Shown here: positions 27,849 through 60,620 of the stretch, piece after piece | Numbering within the stretch: position 1 is the first letter of the stretch | Layout of the letters: each line of letters starts with the position of its first letter | Assembly (NCBI GenBank): GCA_963745025.1 | Contig: CAVUWD010000013.1 | Location: 160,001 to 224,000 of the forward strand | Length of the DNA stretch: 64,000 nt | Direction: 5' to 3' | Source: an uncultured delta proteobacterium | GTDB lineage: Bacteria > Desulfobacterota > Binatia > JACPRU01 | Program-made: the position numbers and the translations under genes | Notes under the pieces: model-generated | Database searches by the model: none | Told to the model about the DNA's origin: nothing | Seen by the model: the letters and a program-made list of their open reading frames with translations, nothing else

Positions 27849-28862
27849 TCACCTTTCCTCGACGGAACAGGAATCGAGAATTCGGATCCAGCGGTCACGC
27901 TGGTCGCGTCCGCGTTTTGCGGCTTTGTAGACCGACTCCGGCTTCAAGCCGAGGTCAAGTGCGAGCTCGCGTCCGCTCCGACCAAGGAATTCGACCCAGA
28001 GGTATGCAAGCCCTTCGCGGGCCTCCGAGATGACGCGAGTCCGGCCAGGCTCGCAGATAGCGCGAGGGCTCACGCCGCATGCGGCACAAACCACGTCCTT
28101 CACGGAGGAGAGGTCGGATGGGGTCAGGGCCGCTGAGCGGCTTCGCTTGGCGGCCTCGCCGCGGATCTTGTCGACGAATCGACTGCTTCCGAGCACGCGT
28201 TCATCTGAGGTAAAGTCTTCGCGTCGCCGTCTCGACTCCGACACGGCTGTCCAACCACCCGCGCTCCGGACGAGCCGGCCGCCGCTGAGTTCCGATCGCT
28301 TGCCGAGAAGCGCCCCTTCGCAAACGAACTTCCGGTATGCCGCACGCGCCCAACCAAGATACCTACCGAAGCGCGCGAGCACCTCTTGGGTGGACTGCCA
28401 GGCACGCGGAACCGTCGATAACAGAGCCGAATGGCCCGTGTAGGGATAGTCATCGAGCTCGTCGACGTGACCGACGATGCCCGCGCGTAGCGGATTCAGA
28501 TGGATGTAACGAACCAGCTCGAGGAAGTAGCGCTCGGCTTCGCAAGCAACCGATTTGTAGCGATTCTGAAAGAGGTGGCCGACTCGCTCGTGCCGTCGAT
28601 TGAACACACTCGCGAAGCCGGTGAGAAGCGAGCACATCGAGCGCTCGAGTGGGAGCTCGTCGATTCCGACGAGGAGATGGAAGTGGTTCGGCATCAGCAC
28701 CCAGGCGTAGACCCTCAGTTGGCGATCCTGGACGAGCTTGGAAACGCGTAGCAAAAGGTCCTCGCGATCCGCGTCGTCACGAAAGATCGTTTGTCGGTCG
28801 ATTCCGCGCGCCATGACGTGGTGGAGCACGCCGGGCGCGTCGAGTCGGGGTCCGCGAGGCAC
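27849..28862 (-). mobile_element. REP-associated tyrosine transposase (RAYT, HUH/Y1) with C-terminal DnaA-C-like HTH
   Basis: PGVLHHVMARG..RQTIFRDD.DRE, VLMPNHFHLLV (HUH), GHLFQNRYKS, LVRYIHLNPLRAG. Confidence 0.88.
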
Positions 28863-54379: not shown

Positions 54380-54826
54380 TCAGGTCGCGAACCGCTCGCG
54401 CGCGGGGGGTGGCCCCCCTTGCTGAGGGCCGATCCAGATCTCTCCACCGCGGTAGTGCTCCTTCTTCCAGATCGGCACGATTTCCTTGAGGCGATCGATC
54501 GCGAAGCGACACGCGGCGAACGCGGCGTCACGGTGGGCCGCGGACACCGCAATCGCGACGCTCGTTTCGCCAATCTCGACGACGCCTACACGGTGGACGA
54601 TGGCGACTGCCTTGGCGGAGAATCGCTCGATCGCCTGGTCGCCGATCCGCCGCATCTCGCGAAGCGCCATCTCCGGATACGCTTCGTACTCGAGACGGAT
54701 CACTTGCCGCCCGGCATTGTGATCGCGCGTGGTGCCGAGAAAGGTCGCGATCGCGCCCGCGTCCGGTCTGCCGACGGCGACGATCAAGCGGGAGAGCTCG
54801 ATCGGATGTTCGACGACTTCAAACAT
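54380..54826 (-). CDS. moaE: Molybdopterin synthase catalytic subunit
   Basis: GAIATFLGTTR, LEYEAYPEMA, HRVG, PIWKKE. Confidence 0.93.
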   Translation of the reverse strand: MFEVVEHPIELSRLIVAVGRPDAGAIATFLGTTRDHNAGRQVIRLEYEAYPEMALREMRRIGDQAIERFSAKAVAIVHRVGVVEIGETSVAIAVSAAHRDAAFAACRFAIDRLKEIVPIWKKEHYRGGEIWIGPQQGGPPPARERFAT

Positions 54827-55082
54827 GGCATCGCGGGCACCCGCCGCTCACCGGGGGAATGAACGCAATCTCGTCATTATCTTGGAGGGTCCTTTTGCTG
54901 TCAACGTACTCCTGGTTGACGGCGAAGGCGACGGCGCCGCGAAACTCCGCCAGCCGGGGGCGTTCGCGGCGGAGATCGTCCCAGAGCGCGCCGACGGTGG
55001 TCGGCCGAGCAAGCTCGCGGGTGAGCTCCGAGGCTCCCGCGCGCTCGCGCAACGCCGCAAAGAAGCGAAGCCGAACCCGCAC
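54819..55082 (-). CDS. moaD: Molybdopterin synthase sulfur carrier
   Basis: FFAALRE, AVNQEY, PPVSGG (followed by a 6-aa extension CPRCHV). Confidence 0.88.
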   Translation of the reverse strand: MRVRLRFFAALRERAGASELTRELARPTTVGALWDDLRRERPRLAEFRGAVAFAVNQEYVDSKRTLQDNDEIAFIPPVSGGCPRCHV

Positions 55083-55084
55083 GG

Positions 55085-55588
55085 CTATCCCTCAAGCAGA
55101 CCGAGCGCGTGGCCGAGCTCGGGAAGCGCGAGCTTCTGCATGGCGAGCTCGACGGCAGCGGTCGAGCCCGGCATCGAGAACAGGATCTTGCCCGCGACGA
55201 TTCCCGCGGTGGCCCGCGACAGCATCGCCGCCGCGCCGATCTCCGCGTAGCTGAGCATGCGGAAGAGCTCGCCGAAGCCCTCGATCTCCTTCTCGAACAG
55301 CTCGCGCACGGCTTCGAAGGTCGTGTCGCGCGGCGCGATCCCAGTGCCGCCGGAAAGAAAGATCGCCTGGATGCTGGAGTCGGCGAAGAGGGGCTGCAGC
55401 GCGTCGCGGATTCGCAAGGGATCGTCAGGAACGATCGTGTAGGCGAGAACCTGGTGGCCGGCGCCGGCGAGCAGCTCCTTGAGTCGCGCTCCGCTCTTAT
55501 CGTCCGCCTCCGTGCGGGTGTCGCTGATCGTCAAGACCGCGCACCTCGCGCGCTGCTTACCTTTGCGGTGATGCTCCCCAACGCTCAT
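55085..55588 (-). CDS. moaB: Molybdenum cofactor biosynthesis protein B
   Basis: LTISDTR..DKSG, SGGTGIAPRDTT, GFGELFR, AAMLSRA, MPGS. Confidence 0.9.
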   Translation of the reverse strand: MSVGEHHRKGKQRARCAVLTISDTRTEADDKSGARLKELLAGAGHQVLAYTIVPDDPLRIRDALQPLFADSSIQAIFLSGGTGIAPRDTTFEAVRELFEKEIEGFGELFRMLSYAEIGAAAMLSRATAGIVAGKILFSMPGSTAAVELAMQKLALPELGHALGLLEG

Positions 55589-55650
55589 CGGAGAAATCGT
55601 ATCAGCCAAGCCGCGCCGCGCAAGCCGATTCGCGAGGCTCGCGGCAGGAT

Positions 55651-55855
55651 CGCTGCGAATTCCGAGAAGCGCTGGAGTTTCCGGTCGGGACGTACTTGGC
55701 CCGACCGGAAACTCCAGCCACCGCGCGGAGCGCGGAAAACAATAACCCACGGAAGTGGTCTATCGCCTTCCGCGCTTGCGCGCGGTTGCGGTCGGTTTGC
55801 ATCGACCCGAGTACGGCTCGATGCAAACCGACCGCGCACTGCGGATTGCCGAGCG
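55651..55855. other. 205-bp structured inverted element: two homologous 48-nt hairpins flanking a central long hairpin
   Basis: Hairpins at 55671-55718 and 55788-55835 with CGTACT loops; central stem 55721-55785. Confidence 0.8.
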
Positions 55856-55895
55856 TGCTAATGAAACTGAAGGCCTTCCGGACCAGGTCGCCTCG

Positions 55896-57661
55896 CTACC
55901 GTCCGGCCGTCACTCTCCGCGCCAGCGCTTCGTGCTCCTCGCGGATGGCCCGCGGAAGATGATCGCCGAATTTCTCGAAGTACTCACGCTGGCCGTGCAC
56001 GGCTTCGATCCAGTCGGCGCGATCGACCCGCAGAACCTCGCGCATCGCGTCGCCCGAGAGGTCGAGGCCCTCGCTATCGATGGCCTTCTGCGTTGGAACG
56101 TAGCCGATCGGGGTTTCCTCCCCCGATCCGCCTCCCCGGCAGCGGTCGAGCACCCACTCGAGGACGCGCAGGTTCTCGCCGAAGCCCGGCCAGAGAAACT
56201 TGCCGTTTTCCCCCGTGCGGAACCAGTTCACACGGAAGATCTTGGGCGGGTTCGACGTGCGGCGACCCATGTCGAGCCAGTGCGCCCAGTAGTCGGCCAT
56301 GTTGTAGCCGCAGAACGGGACCATCGCCATGGGATCTCGTCGCAGGACACCGACCTTGCCGACTGCCGCCGCGGTCGTCTCCGACGCGAGGGTTGCGCCG
56401 AGGAAGGTGCCGTGCTGCCAGTCGAACGACTGGTATACCAGTGGCACGACGCGCTGCCGCCGCGCACCGAATAGAATGGCGCTGATCGGTACGCCCTTCG
56501 GATTTTCCCACTCCGGCGAGATCACGGGACACTGCGAGGCCGGCGCCGTGAACCGGCTGTTCGGGTGCGCTGCAACCTGCCCGCCGGAAGCGTGCCAGGG
56601 CTTCCCTTGCCAATCCAGCATGCCGTCGCCGGGCGGATCGTCGTGACCCTCCCACCACACCGTGCCGTCGGGCTTGAGGGCGACGTTGGTAAAGATCGCA
56701 TTGTGGTTGATCGTCGCCATCGCGTTGCGGTTGGTCTTCGTTCCGGTGCCCGGCGCCACGCCGAAAAATCCAGCCTCGGGATTCACCGCCCACAGCCGCC
56801 CGTCGTCGCCGATGCGGAGCCAAGCGATGTCGTCGCCGACGGTCCACACCTTCCACCCTCTGGCCGCCAATGGAGCGGGCGGCACCAGCATCGCCAGGTT
56901 GGTCTTGCCGCATGCGGAAGGAAACGCCGCCGTGACGTAGTGGATGTCGCCGTCGGGTGTCTGGACCCCGAGGATCAGCATGTGCTCCGCCATCCACCCT
57001 TCCTTCCAGCCGAGGTAGGAGGCGATGCGCAGCGCGAGGCACTTCTTGCCGAGGAGAGCGTTGCCGCCGTAGCCGGAGCCGATCGACCAGATTTCGTTGT
57101 CTTGCGGGAAAGTGCAGGATGTAGCGGCGATCCGGGGACAGATCCCCGAGCGAGTGCAGGCAGCGGGTGAAGTCGGACCCGGTGCCGAGCTCGCGCCAGC
57201 GCGATCGTCCCCATGCGGGTCATGATCCGCATGTTGAGCACCACGTAGATGCTGTCCGTGATCTCGACCCCCACCTTGGCGAAGGGCGAGCCGGCCGGTC
57301 CCATGAGGAACGGGACGACGTACATCGTCCGCCCACGCATCGAGCCCTCGAACAGCTTCCCGACCTTGTCGCGCGCCTCGCCGGGATCCATCCAGTTGTT
57401 GGTGGGACCCGACTCGTCCTTCGTCGGCGTACAGATGAAGGTGAGATGCTCGGTGCGCGCCACGTCCGACGGATGGCTACGGTGCAGATAGCAACCGGGA
57501 AGCTTTTGCGGGTTCAACCGAATCAGCTCTCCCCGCCGGACCGCCTCTTGCGTGAGGCGTTCCTTTTCCGCCTCCGAGCCGTCGCACCACACCACGGCAT
57601 CGGGCTTGGTTCTCGCTGCGATCTCGGTGACCCACCTCTCGACAGCTGCGTTCTCGCTCAT
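55896..57661 (-). CDS. pckG: Phosphoenolpyruvate carboxykinase (GTP); two frameshifts near 57195 and 57105
   Basis: [64 protein letters not shown]. Confidence 0.93.
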
Positions 57662-60249: not shown

Positions 60250-60620
60250 GCTCGGCTCTGTAGCGAACTTCGATCGCTGCAGGAAGCGAGCAGAGCAGAT
60301 CCTTCCTGGTGCCTCAGTCTTGGCTACGAAGCTCCGGTGGAGGGATAGCGGTGGATGTTCCCGTCGATCCGGGAAGGATCCGCTCCGCTTGCCACGCGAG
60401 ACGGAAGCGGCACGCGCTTCGGGCCTGCTCGCCAGCATGGAAGAGGCGGCGCGGTGGGCTCGCGCCTGGCGCAGGCCGCGTCACGAGCGCCAGGTGTACC
60501 ACGCTGCCGTCTCTTGGGGCATGAAAGGCTTCGAGAACGAAGCTCGTGGCGGACAAGCCAGGCGCGCGCTCGCCGCGTTCAGGTCACGGAGGAAATTTCG
60601 GATCGAGACTGAGTTCTGCT

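What the first reader, a model, noticed from the sequence alone, without database searches (positions are those of the whole stretch)
55651..55855. Inverted pair of hairpins with nine compensatory base-pair changes
Seen: halves 55651-55750 and 55755-55855 are inverted homologs. Each holds a 48-nt hairpin (GCTGGAGTTTCCGGTCGGG-ACGTACTTGG-CCCGACCGGAAACTCCAGC versus GCGGTCGGTTTGCATCGA-GCCGTACTCGGG-TCGATGCAAACCGACCGC) in which 9 of 18 stem pairs differ yet all remain Watson-Crick, and the loop CGTACTyGG is kept. The inner parts pair into a long central stem whose four A-C mismatches become G-U on the minus strand, the pckG-moaB sense. Inference: selection on structure plus a loop recognition sequence, i.e. 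an unrecognised structured RNA or an ssDNA substrate for an HUH enzyme or recombinase.
Basis: partly seen in the sequence, partly recalled or inferred. Interest (0 to 1): 0.75.

Follow-up and report, generated by a model that had tools for sequence, protein, structure and literature searches.

The report
Truncated MITE copy with paired hairpins
The two hairpins are the core of one worn copy of a small non-coding jumping element found about a hundred times in this bacterial genome, so this is an ordinary kind of mobile DNA whose self-pairing hairpin arms change in step.

Summary
Window 55671-55718 and 55788-55835 are two near-perfect 22-bp hairpins with a TACT tetraloop on opposite strands, around a central stem. 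It is not a unique RNA gene. It is one copy of a ~252-254-bp repeat with 98 loci in this 5.65-Mb genome. Copies carry terminal inverted repeats (GTAATGCCTCAGTCT...) and 8-bp target duplications: 6 of 20 testable copies are perfect 8/8, against none in about 4000 control pairings. The same 15-nt termini (14/15) and an 8-bp duplication bound a 1,882-bp IS66-family insertion sequence present three times in the same genome. The element is missing from the pckG-moaB spacer of a congener. I read it as a MITE moved in trans by a DDE transposase, not by an HUH enzyme. The window copy has lost its left terminus. Hairpin covariation is strong: 96.5% of cells paired against 75.3% in shuffles, and 17 of 22 pairs changed on both sides. 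Flipped loops and mirrored multi-base changes fit arm-to-arm template switching as well as selection. I found no support for an RNA role. It is a new member of a known kind.

The parts
55639..55878 (+). One copy of the ~252-254-bp MITE, in family orientation + (A-type hairpin on the left). The left ~20 nt (left terminal inverted repeat) are missing or unrecognisable, and the left boundary is uncertain between 55639 and 55648.
   Evidence: nhmmer hit C13:215639-215873, profile positions 14-249 of 253, E 1.3e-57. The right terminus was read from the sequence against the consensus and the IS end. The congener's flank still aligns up to about 55638-55647.
55648..55670 (+). Left subterminal arm (GATCGCTGCGAATTCCGAGAAGC), shared with sister copies.
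   Evidence: Alignment of doublets and of full copies.
55671..55718 (+). Hairpin L: 22-bp stem (20 of 22 Watson-Crick pairs), tetraloop TACT at 55693-55696.
   Evidence: (I2).
55719..55787 (.). Central stem-loop. Its base (CACCGCGCGgAGCGCGGAA / TTCCGCGCTtGCGCGCGGTT) is the most conserved part of the family. This copy has four A-C mismatches on the + strand.
55788..55835 (-). Hairpin R: 22-bp stem (21 of 22 pairs), TACT loop on the minus strand (AGTA at 55810-55813 on +). The stem variant GGTTTGCATCGA was seen only in this copy among the hairpins listed for this genome.
   Evidence: (I1).
55836..55856 (+). Right subterminal arm.
55857..55878 (-). Right terminal inverted repeat (...GAAACTGAAGGCCTTC). 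Compare the IS end ...GGAGACTGAGGCCTTAC.
   Evidence: Sequence read.
55085..55588 (-). Flanking gene downstream in the minus sense: MoaB-like molybdopterin-binding protein, start codon at 55586-55588.
   Evidence: Pfam PF00994, E 3.1e-32.
55896..56993 (-). Flanking gene upstream in the minus sense: C-terminal part of GTP-dependent PEP carboxykinase, stop codon at 55896-55898.
   Evidence: Pfam PF00821, E 7.2e-165.

Best explanation
[quoted passage not shown] The intact element is ~252-254 bp. Its order is: terminal inverted repeat GTAATGCCTCAGTCT..., a ~25-nt arm, a 22-bp hairpin with TACT loop, a ~67-nt central stem-loop, the same kind of hairpin inverted, an arm, and the second terminal repeat. 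It carries no transposase. A DDE transposase of the IS66 family (ISBst12-like, a single 468-aa ORF) most likely moves it in trans. That transposase is encoded by a 1,882-bp IS that shares the terminal 15 nt and also makes 8-bp target duplications. The TIRs, the target duplications, the copy number, the insertion polymorphism and the shared termini are shown. That this particular transposase does the moving is inferred. The two hairpins are inverted copies of one subterminal palindromic module. The nine 'compensatory' differences between them are the difference between the left-type and right-type stems, which already existed in the family's ancestors. I think the arms stay complementary mainly because one arm is copied from the other (replication template switching or gene conversion within a quasipalindrome). 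This also flips loops and mirrors multi-base changes. Selection for a foldable hairpin during transposition may add to it. That last step is inferred, and I put it at roughly even odds against pure selection on structure. The window copy has lost its left terminus and is probably immobile. The confidence given (0.8) is for the MITE reading. I put the named IS as the driver at about 0.7, and template switching as the main keeper of the stems at about 0.5.
For: Repeat family. nhmmer finds 98 non-overlapping loci, 52 of them near full length under the cut used, on 15 of 20 contigs by my reading of the list. There are 96 TACT-looped hairpins with 17 or more of 22 pairs, after I set aside one unrelated 17-pair hit. 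Of 22 two-hairpin groups, 21 are '+-', 1 is '++' and 0 are '-+', mostly ~112-117 bp apart (others 94-176).

TIR and target duplication. At fixed boundaries, 6 of 20 testable copies have a perfect 8/8 flanking duplication, or 7 of 20 allowing +-1 nt. In about 4000 mismatched control pairings none reached 8/8: the strict maximum was 6, and 7 with slop at 0.3%.

Partner IS. Three copies are 99.9-100% identical. The C19 copy is flanked by an 8-bp duplication AACGATCG, and C6 copy 2 by CTTCTGGA. Its ORF matches PF03050 at 6.2e-38 and zf-IS66, and scores 218.5 bits on NCBIfam transpos_IS66 against a cut-off of 180. The MITE consensus and the IS share 14 of 15 terminal nt at both ends and nothing else. 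One subfamily's left end (GTAGGGCCTCAGTCTCTGTAGG) matches the IS end in 20 of 22 positions by my own count.

Literature. ISDge4 (IS66 family, ISBst12 group) has TIRs GTGACTACTCAGCA / GTAACTGCTCAGCA, an 8-bp direct repeat and a 449-aa transposase (PMC12898284, passages read).

Mobility. The congener G001 has 54 nt where this genome has 265 nt. Of 8 G001 element loci, 7 have both flanks on one G000 contig. G000 holds no full-length element at any of the 7: it has partial remnants at 2 and nothing detectable at 5. Metagenome contigs join 55625/55629 to 55893. This is weak evidence (short sides, 90% likeness).

Context. Copies sit in intergenic sites of all types, with no orientation bias.

Arm-to-arm copying. 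3 of 99 hairpins are flipped. Among 71 nearest-neighbour hairpin comparisons, 45 stem pairs changed on both sides against 6.2 expected at random. Four comparisons have runs of adjacent double changes, one with three adjacent mirrored changes and no other difference. Covariation is confined to the two tight hairpins: 13 and 9 of 22 pairs have two or more Watson-Crick types, against 1 of 26 in the central stem. Template switching is reported to homogenise inverted-repeat arms, invert spacers and give multi-base compensatory changes (PMC8794818, passages; PMC8604942, abstract only).
Against: The partner IS was found only in G000. G001 has many MITE copies (27 BLAST matches, 48 model matches), but its three IS66-family genes are only 31-32% identical and I saw no GCCTCAGTC-type end in their loci. 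G001 is 82% complete, so this is not decisive. The MITE and the IS share only 15 terminal nt. Only 6-7 of 20 copies keep a perfect duplication. The window copy itself has no left TIR and no recognisable duplication, so its own insertion is inferred from the family and from the empty site. The interior (identity to consensus 0.84-0.90) is better conserved than the TIRs and arms (0.62-0.67). That is unusual for a MITE and hints at a constraint on the core that I cannot name. A G-T mismatch at stem position 18 persists in about half of the hairpins (43 of 86 distinct rows), and unrestricted arm homogenisation should erase it. On the TACT strand, G-T outnumbers A-C 47 to 20 outside that position. 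This would fit selection on one folded strand, but it rests mostly on one subfamily and is not corrected for relatedness.
Confidence: 0.8

Rival explanations
1. REP/REPIN-like element. The inverted hairpin doublet is a single-strand DNA substrate of a RAYT-like Y1 (HUH) transposase, two of which the genome encodes, one of them in this window.
For: The genome has two PF01797 matches (42.4 and 39.8 bits; 39.8 and 36.7 bits on the translated ORFs; cut-off 23). One scores 74.6 bits on NCBIfam REP_Tyr_transpos. The hairpins occur as inverted doublets in intergenic DNA with a partly conserved loop. Wobble pairs lean to the TACT strand, 47 against 20.
Against: Copies have terminal inverted repeats and 8-bp target duplications, which Y1/HUH transposition is not expected to produce (established knowledge, recalled). 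Neither Y1 gene is flanked by the hairpins or by any family hit; the nearest copies are more than 5 kb away. The REP_Tyr_transpos score is below its cut-off of 80. The termini match a DDE-type IS instead.
Confidence: 0.06
2. A host-selected structured RNA or cis-regulatory RNA (mRNA stabiliser, RNase III site, terminator or insulator) in the pckG-moaB transcript, with the hairpins kept by selection on RNA folding.
For: Covariation is very strong. Predicted folds are very stable: -194.6 and -198.0 kcal/mol for the two strands of the consensus. In this copy the gene-sense strand folds better, -49.5 against -41.0 kcal/mol for the central stem. MITE transcripts are known to form stable stem-loops that can affect expression (review PMC10969869, passages).
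Against: The element is absent from the same spacer in the congener. Elements at shared loci decay or are missing. There is no orientation bias relative to flanking genes, 19 against 15. The central stem shows no family-wide G-T/A-C bias, 47 against 47. The wobble-tolerant strand is opposite for the two hairpins, so a single transcript cannot account for both. No Rfam family matches. There is no U-tract terminator or promoter-like site.
Confidence: 0.08
3. It is a MITE, but the hairpins are a functional part of transposition: a folded subterminal signal read on the strand whose 5' end is at each tip. The stems covary because only copies with intact hairpins amplify.
For: The module sits at the same distance from both ends and in mirror orientation. 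The core is better conserved than the TIRs. The left hairpin and the adjacent CACCGCGCG.AGCGCGGAA motif persist in another genus with different stems and loops. G-T is tolerated on the TACT strand in a recently amplified subfamily. The position-18 mismatch is retained.
Against: The autonomous IS has no such hairpin or core. Left-loop variants TGCT and GATT amplified well, 8 copies each. Mirrored multi-base changes and loop flips are more simply explained by mutation. No experiment bears on it.
Confidence: 0.2

Closest known systems
Prokaryotic MITEs in general (for example QMITE2 of Coxiella, shown in review PMC10969869; Correia elements of Neisseria, recalled)
   Same: Small non-coding element with terminal inverted repeats and short target duplications. 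Many intergenic copies, a long imperfect palindrome with a very stable predicted fold, termini shared with an autonomous IS, and insertion polymorphism between relatives.
   Different: GC-rich rather than AT-rich. It has IS66-type ends with an 8-bp duplication. It contains two internal 22-bp tetraloop hairpins whose stems covary between subfamilies. Its core is better conserved than its TIRs. No sequence relation to any named MITE was tested other than through Rfam.
IS66 family, ISBst12 group (for example ISDge4 of Deinococcus geothermalis, PMC12898284)
   Same: Ends of the form GT(A/G)A...CTCAG, an 8-bp direct repeat, and for the partner IS a single ~450-470-aa DDE_Tnp_IS66 transposase with a zf-IS66 domain.
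   Different: The element in the window has no transposase. The partner's transposase is only about 30% identical to the nearest annotated plasmid-borne relatives (Deinococcus). It also carries a small upstream ORF just under the DUF6788 cut-off (27.0 against 27.2 bits).
REP / REPIN elements with RAYT (Y1) transposases
   Same: Intergenic GC-rich hairpins arranged as inverted doublets. Y1_Tnp genes are present in the genome.
   Different: TIRs and 8-bp duplications are present. The Y1 genes are not flanked by the hairpins. The hairpins are 48 nt with a tetraloop, not a short imperfect palindrome with a conserved foot (that description of REP is recalled).
Hairpins created and maintained by replication template switching (PMC8794818; PMC8604942)
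   Same: Arms kept perfectly complementary, multi-base mirrored changes, and occasional inversion of the loop.
   Different: Those studies concern rRNA and microRNA genes and yeast coding inverted repeats. Here the pattern sits in a multi-copy mobile element, so amplification of master copies is confounded with in-place change.

Membership tests
MITE (non-autonomous DDE-type element) | Short, no transposase gene | tested here: met
   Consensus of 252-254 bp. The element is shorter than any transposase gene, and the ORFs listed across it are read-throughs of flanking frames. Coding potential was not scored.
MITE (non-autonomous DDE-type element) | Terminal inverted repeats | tested here: met
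   GTAATGCCTCAGTCTT... / ...AAGACTGAGGCGTTAC in the family. In the window copy only the right one is recognisable.
MITE (non-autonomous DDE-type element) | Target-site duplication of fixed length | tested here: met
   8 bp. 6 of 20 copies are perfect at fixed boundaries, 7 of 20 with +-1 nt, and 0 of about 4000 control pairings. It cannot be assessed for the window copy.
MITE (non-autonomous DDE-type element) | Many dispersed copies and presence/absence polymorphism | tested here: met
   98 loci. Empty site in G001. 0 of 7 G001 loci hold a full-length element in G000.
MITE (non-autonomous DDE-type element) | Termini shared with an autonomous IS that could act in trans | tested here: met
   14 of 15 nt at both ends match a 1,882-bp IS with the same 8-bp duplication length. 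Trans-mobilisation itself cannot be tested with these tools.
IS66 family (partner IS) | DDE_Tnp_IS66 transposase above curated cut-offs | tested here: met
   PF03050 131.3 bits (cut-off 23.1), zf-IS66 29.4 (27.3), NCBIfam transpos_IS66 218.5 (180).
IS66 family (partner IS) | 8-bp direct repeats and ends beginning GTAA | tested here: met
   AACGATCG and CTTCTGGA duplications, with ends GTAAGGCCTCAG. Compared with ISDge4 in PMC12898284. The family-wide rule is otherwise recalled.
REP/REPIN with RAYT | Y1 transposase gene flanked by the repeats | tested here: not met
   No family hairpin or nhmmer hit lies within 5 kb of either Y1_Tnp gene, and no flanking inverted repeats of the family were found.
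REP/REPIN with RAYT | No terminal inverted repeats and no target duplication (recalled property of Y1/HUH transposition) | tested here: not met
   Both are present.
Any Rfam RNA family | Match at or above the gathering score | tested here: not met
   Six matches at E up to 10 in 54500-57000, none near gathering. Those on the element are microRNA-precursor models at 16-18 bits against 50-106.
Intrinsic terminator | GC-rich hairpin followed by a T run | tested here: not met
   0 terminator-like sites in 55300-56200 on either strand.
IS1-family MITE (my own early idea, from recalled IS1 ends) | IS1-type transposase in the genome | tested here: not met
   PF03400 gave 0 matches in G000 (92.65% complete). 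The idea was dropped once the IS66-type partner was found.

The most novel reading that the evidence does not exclude
The two mirror-image 22-bp hairpins and the conserved central stem are a selected folded signal. They would be read as single-stranded or cruciform DNA at each end during IS66/ISBst12-type transposition, or spread as an RNA module. The MITE would then reveal a structure-dependent step in a transposase family whose mechanism is poorly known. The covariation would be true selection rather than a by-product of mutation.
Probability: 0.15. Interest if true: 0.6.

Novelty: new member of a known kind. Interest (0 to 1): 0.3.

Why it matters
The main value is as a correction. A textbook-looking case of nine compensatory base-pair changes turns out to be a difference between two ends of a mobile repeat. 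In tight DNA palindromes, such changes can arise by copying one arm from the other, so covariation alone is not proof of a selected RNA. For annotation, it defines a previously unlabelled repeat family (about 100 copies, found in 2 of 66 genera sampled in the class) and its likely IS66-family driver in an uncultured soil and sediment lineage. This explains many intergenic hairpins in these genomes, and probably assembly breaks too. If the core proves necessary for movement, it would give a handle on the little-studied IS66/ISBst12 transposition mechanism.

Tried and rejected
IS1-family origin. I recalled that IS1 ends look similar (GGTAATG...) and that IS1 makes 8-9-bp duplications. PF03400 gave no match in the genome, and an IS66-type partner with matching ends was then found, so I dropped the idea.

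RAYT/REP reading: tested and not met (see the membership test).

Terminator or promoter: none found by the consensus scan.

Rfam: nothing relevant.

Wider distribution by pattern. Only three loci, all from one MAG record set (CAVQIG01...), carried real hairpins (19-22 of 22 pairs). Three others had 15 of 22 and the rest fewer, so most hits were chance.

Clean target-site reconstruction at the window locus and at four G001 loci failed. The intergenic DNA of the two species is too diverged to place boundaries to the base.

In-place evolution of shared copies. The two loci where both species hold element DNA (L100/C11:119157 and L084/C14:92325) could not be shown to be the same insertion, so they say nothing firm about compensation in place.

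My first gene caller (GC3 thresholds) missed known genes and was replaced by a codon-usage one. That one is still crude: it over-extends starts and missed moaE and the PEPCK N-terminal ORF in the test region. The context counts are therefore approximate.

Singleton-substitution density by region was 0.23-0.61 per column in the regions of 22 or more columns (the two 4-column loops gave 0.25 and 1.00). This gave no clear sign of selection after insertion.

RNA evidence. One RNA run (X18) laid as contigs covered parts of the flanking genes and gave no cover on 55311-55865. Contigs cannot show absence, so this says nothing either way. The DNA contigs that skip 55625/55629-55893 have short sides (26-41 nt) at 90% likeness and may come from relatives.

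Five of the 104 hairpin positions were mis-located by my simple search (L231R, L242R, L253R, L256R, L257L). I left them out of alignment A2, which has 99 rows. In one search I dropped one 17-pair hit (C13:390741) whose sequence is unrelated to the family.

Supplementary files were not asked for; Figure S1 of PMC12898284 (ISDge4 ends) may hold detail that I did not see. I make no claim that an IS66-derived MITE is unreported. My searches listed none by title or abstract, and I read passages of only five papers.

Full report
WHAT IS AT THE COORDINATES. Window 55671-55718 is a hairpin with a 19-bp perfect stem; counted as a 22-bp stem around a TACT tetraloop, 20 of 22 positions are Watson-Crick. 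Window 55788-55835 is a second hairpin with 21 of 22 pairs, whose TACT loop lies on the minus strand. Nine of the first 18 stem positions differ between the two, while each stem stays self-complementary. The two halves are inverted homologs: 70 of 100 positions identical, score 29 against -10.3 +- 4.8 in shuffles. The stretch between them, 55719-55787, folds into a long stem with four A-C mismatches on the plus strand. These become G-U on the minus strand (-49.5 against -41.0 kcal/mol). A MoaB-like gene (55085-55588, minus) and the C-terminal part of a GTP-dependent PEP carboxykinase (55896-56993, minus) bracket a 307-nt spacer.

IT IS A DISPERSED REPEAT. The window is C13:160001-224000 of a 5.65-Mb, 20-contig, 66% G+C genome (92.65% complete, 7.6% contamination). 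Its nearest pckG relatives in the public species set are only 56-70% identical and are MAGs labelled Binatia, Myxococcales and the like. Of all long hairpins in the genome (19 or more of 22 pairs, loops of 3-6 nt; 264 hits with overlapping registers), TACT/AGTA loops are by far the commonest, at 45 + 43. Pair counts around every TACT are bimodal: 97 sites have 17-22 pairs, and otherwise nothing exceeds 15. Four control loops reach 15-18 at most. After setting aside one unrelated hit, the 96 hairpins form 52 singles and 22 two-hairpin groups. Of the groups, 21 are '+-', 1 is '++' and none is '-+', mostly 112-117 bp apart. A profile built from 15 doublets finds 98 non-overlapping loci by nhmmer, and the window copy is one of them (55639-55873, profile 14-249 of 253). 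Rfam has nothing.

IT HAS ENDS AND TARGET DUPLICATIONS. Aligning copies with their flanks shows that similarity extends about 45 nt beyond each hairpin. It ends in inverted repeats, GTAATGCCTCAGTCTT... and ...AAGACTGAGGCGTTAC. I fixed the boundaries from these ends and compared the 8 nt outside each end. This gave 6 perfect 8/8 matches among the 20 copies in which both ends could be located, or 7 allowing one base of slop. Pairing left flanks with right flanks of other copies gave none in about 4000 trials; the strict maximum was 6 of 8. A subfamily with a slightly longer right end also shows 7-9-bp duplications by eye.

A LIKELY AUTONOMOUS PARTNER. I searched for the terminal word outside the repeat loci. 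This turned up three pairs of inverted ends about 1.86 kb apart. They bound a 1,882-bp element: one copy on C19 flanked by AACGATCG on both sides, and two tandem copies on C6, the second flanked by CTTCTGGA. The three are 99.9-100% identical. The 468-aa ORF matches DDE_Tnp_IS66 (6.2e-38) and zf-IS66, and passes NCBIfam's IS66 equivalog cut-off (218.5 against 180 bits). A 105-aa upstream ORF falls just under the DUF6788 cut-off. The MITE consensus and this IS share 14 of 15 nt at each tip and nothing inside. A published ISBst12-group member of the IS66 family, ISDge4, has ends GTGACTACTCAGCA / GTAACTGCTCAGCA, an 8-bp direct repeat and a 449-aa transposase (PMC12898284, passages read). That is the same pattern as here. 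The nearest annotated plasmid relatives of the transposase are Deinococcus IS66-family genes at about 30% identity. An earlier idea of mine, an IS1-type origin, failed because the genome has no PF03400 match.

MOBILITY AND DISTRIBUTION. In the only other species of the genus held (G001), the moaB and pckG flanks align at 86-89%. The spacer, however, is 54 nt where this genome has 265 nt, so the element is missing. The converse also holds. Of 8 element loci fetched from G001, 7 have both flanks on one G000 contig. None of these holds a full-length element in G000: two hold partial remnants and five hold nothing detectable. By BLAST the family is in 3 of 41 genomes, counting G000. With a covariance model of the hairpin it is in 3 of 121 genomes of the class: G000, G001 (48 matches) and G005 of another genus (7 matches). 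It was not found in the other 118 genomes, including all 108 of high quality. G005 copies keep the ends, the left hairpin and the CACCGCGCG.AGCGCGGAA motif, but with other stems and other loops. Copies lie between tandem (34), divergent (17) and convergent (7) gene pairs. In tandem contexts the orientation is 19 the same as the genes and 15 opposite. My gene caller is crude, so these counts are approximate. Metagenome DNA contigs pile up on the element and a few join 55625/55629 to 55893. The one RNA run gave no usable information on the element.

THE WINDOW COPY. Its right end (...GAAACTGAAGGCCTTC, to about 55878) matches the family and the IS. Its left arm matches sister copies only from about 55648 inward. 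Left of that, the DNA still aligns with the congener's flank. So about 20 nt, including the left terminal repeat and any duplication, are gone, and this copy is probably immobile.

THE COVARIATION, AND WHAT IT MEANS. I used 99 hairpins from 52 near-full-length copies, each read on its TACT strand; 5 of 104 positions were mis-located and left out, and 86 rows are distinct. In these, 96.5% of cells form a standard pair, against 75.3 +- 0.7% when 3' partners are shuffled (0 of 500 shuffles reach it) and 24-48% when partners are slid. Seventeen of 22 pairs show changes on both sides, in 368 cells against 122.8 expected. These controls do not remove relatedness. Covariation is confined to the two tight hairpins: 13 and 9 of 22 pairs have two or more Watson-Crick types. 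The central stem is simply conserved (1 of 26), and the outer 'stem' formed by the ends is only 51% paired. They are the standing difference between a left-type stem (GCTGGA...) and a right-type stem (GCGGTCGG...) that most copies share.

Three observations point to a mutational cause.
- Three of the 99 hairpins have the apex inverted (loop AGTA or AGTC where TACT is expected).
- Between nearest-neighbour hairpins, 45 pairs changed on both sides against 6.2 expected if changes fell at random, and 84 changed on one side.
- Four comparisons show runs of adjacent mirrored changes, one with three adjacent pairs changed and nothing else. The window's own right stem (TTTGCAT) is such a case and was seen only in this copy among the hairpins listed for this genome.

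Template switching between the arms of an inverted repeat is described as doing exactly this. It homogenises arms, inverts spacers and makes multi-base compensatory changes in one event (PMC8794818, passages; PMC8604942, abstract).

Some things argue against a purely mutational reading. A G-T mismatch five pairs from the loop persists in about half the hairpins. G-T outnumbers A-C on the TACT strand 47 to 20 elsewhere, though mostly through one subfamily. The core is better conserved than the ends. The loop is not essential for amplification, because subfamilies with TGCT or GATT in the left loop have 8 copies each and clean duplications. The favoured strand is opposite for the two hairpins. 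That fits the mirror symmetry of a transposon's two ends, or common descent by inverted duplication, better than it fits one transcript.

RIVALS. The HUH/RAYT idea was worth testing. The genome has two Y1_Tnp genes, one in this window at 27849-28862. But they are not flanked by the repeats, they fall short of the REP-transposase cut-off (74.6 against 80 bits), and the repeats carry TIRs and duplications. An RNA function at this locus is not excluded as a side effect of insertion. However, the absence from the congener, the decay of shared copies, the lack of orientation bias, the lack of a terminator tail and the lack of an Rfam match all speak against a selected RNA gene.

VERDICT. The feature is a left-truncated copy of a MITE with IS66-type ends. 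It is a new member of a known kind, with an instructive pattern of paired change in its internal hairpins, which I think owes as much to arm-to-arm copying as to selection.

Noticed in passing
window 55896-57661 (minus strand): The PEP carboxykinase gene is split into two overlapping ORFs in different frames: PEPCK_N at 56975-57661, matching only positions 1-148 of 218, and PEPCK_GTP at 55896-56993. This is a frameshift, a pseudogene or an assembly error.
   Followed up: no
window 27849-28862 (minus strand); second copy at G000:C11, L002:868-1956: A 337-aa protein with an N-terminal Y1_Tnp (IS200-like) domain and a weak C-terminal DnaA_C-like helix-turn-helix (23.1 bits, below its cut-off of 31.5). 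It is close to but below the NCBIfam REP-transposase cut-off, and it is not flanked by any repeat.
   Followed up: partly
window about 60450-60610, with end-like words at 60309 and 60606: A second dispersed repeat of about 155 nt, with about ten near-full-length matches elsewhere in the genome at 86-92% identity. It lies inside a ~300-nt stretch that begins GGTGCCTCAGTCTTGG and ends GAGACTGAG. It may be another non-autonomous family using the same terminal word.
   Followed up: partly
L110 (G000:C6:484100-488500): Two copies of the IS66-family IS sit head to tail, separated by exactly 8 nt (CTTCTGGA). The same 8 nt follow the second copy, while the first copy's left flank is unrelated. Either this is an insertion right beside an existing end, or it is a tandem-dimer intermediate.
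   Followed up: no
G000 copies L235 (right hairpin), L247 (left hairpin), L265 (right hairpin): The apex of the hairpin (loop plus the adjacent mismatched pair) is inverted relative to all other copies, a flip-flop of the palindrome.
   Followed up: partly
L088, L091, L094, L085 (G005, another genus): Diverged relatives of the element keep the GTAACGCCTCAGTCTC end, the left hairpin stem GCTGGAT(A/T)TTCC and the CACCGCGCG.AGCGCGGAA motif. Their loops differ (GAGTGT, AAGTGT, CTTTTT) and the right half is largely different.
   Followed up: partly
G001 loci L213, L216: The congener carries a different IS66-family element: 2,436 bp shared between two copies at 99.7%, with a transposase 31-32% identical to the one in G000. 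I saw no GCCTCAGTC-type end in it, although that genome is rich in the MITE.
   Followed up: partly
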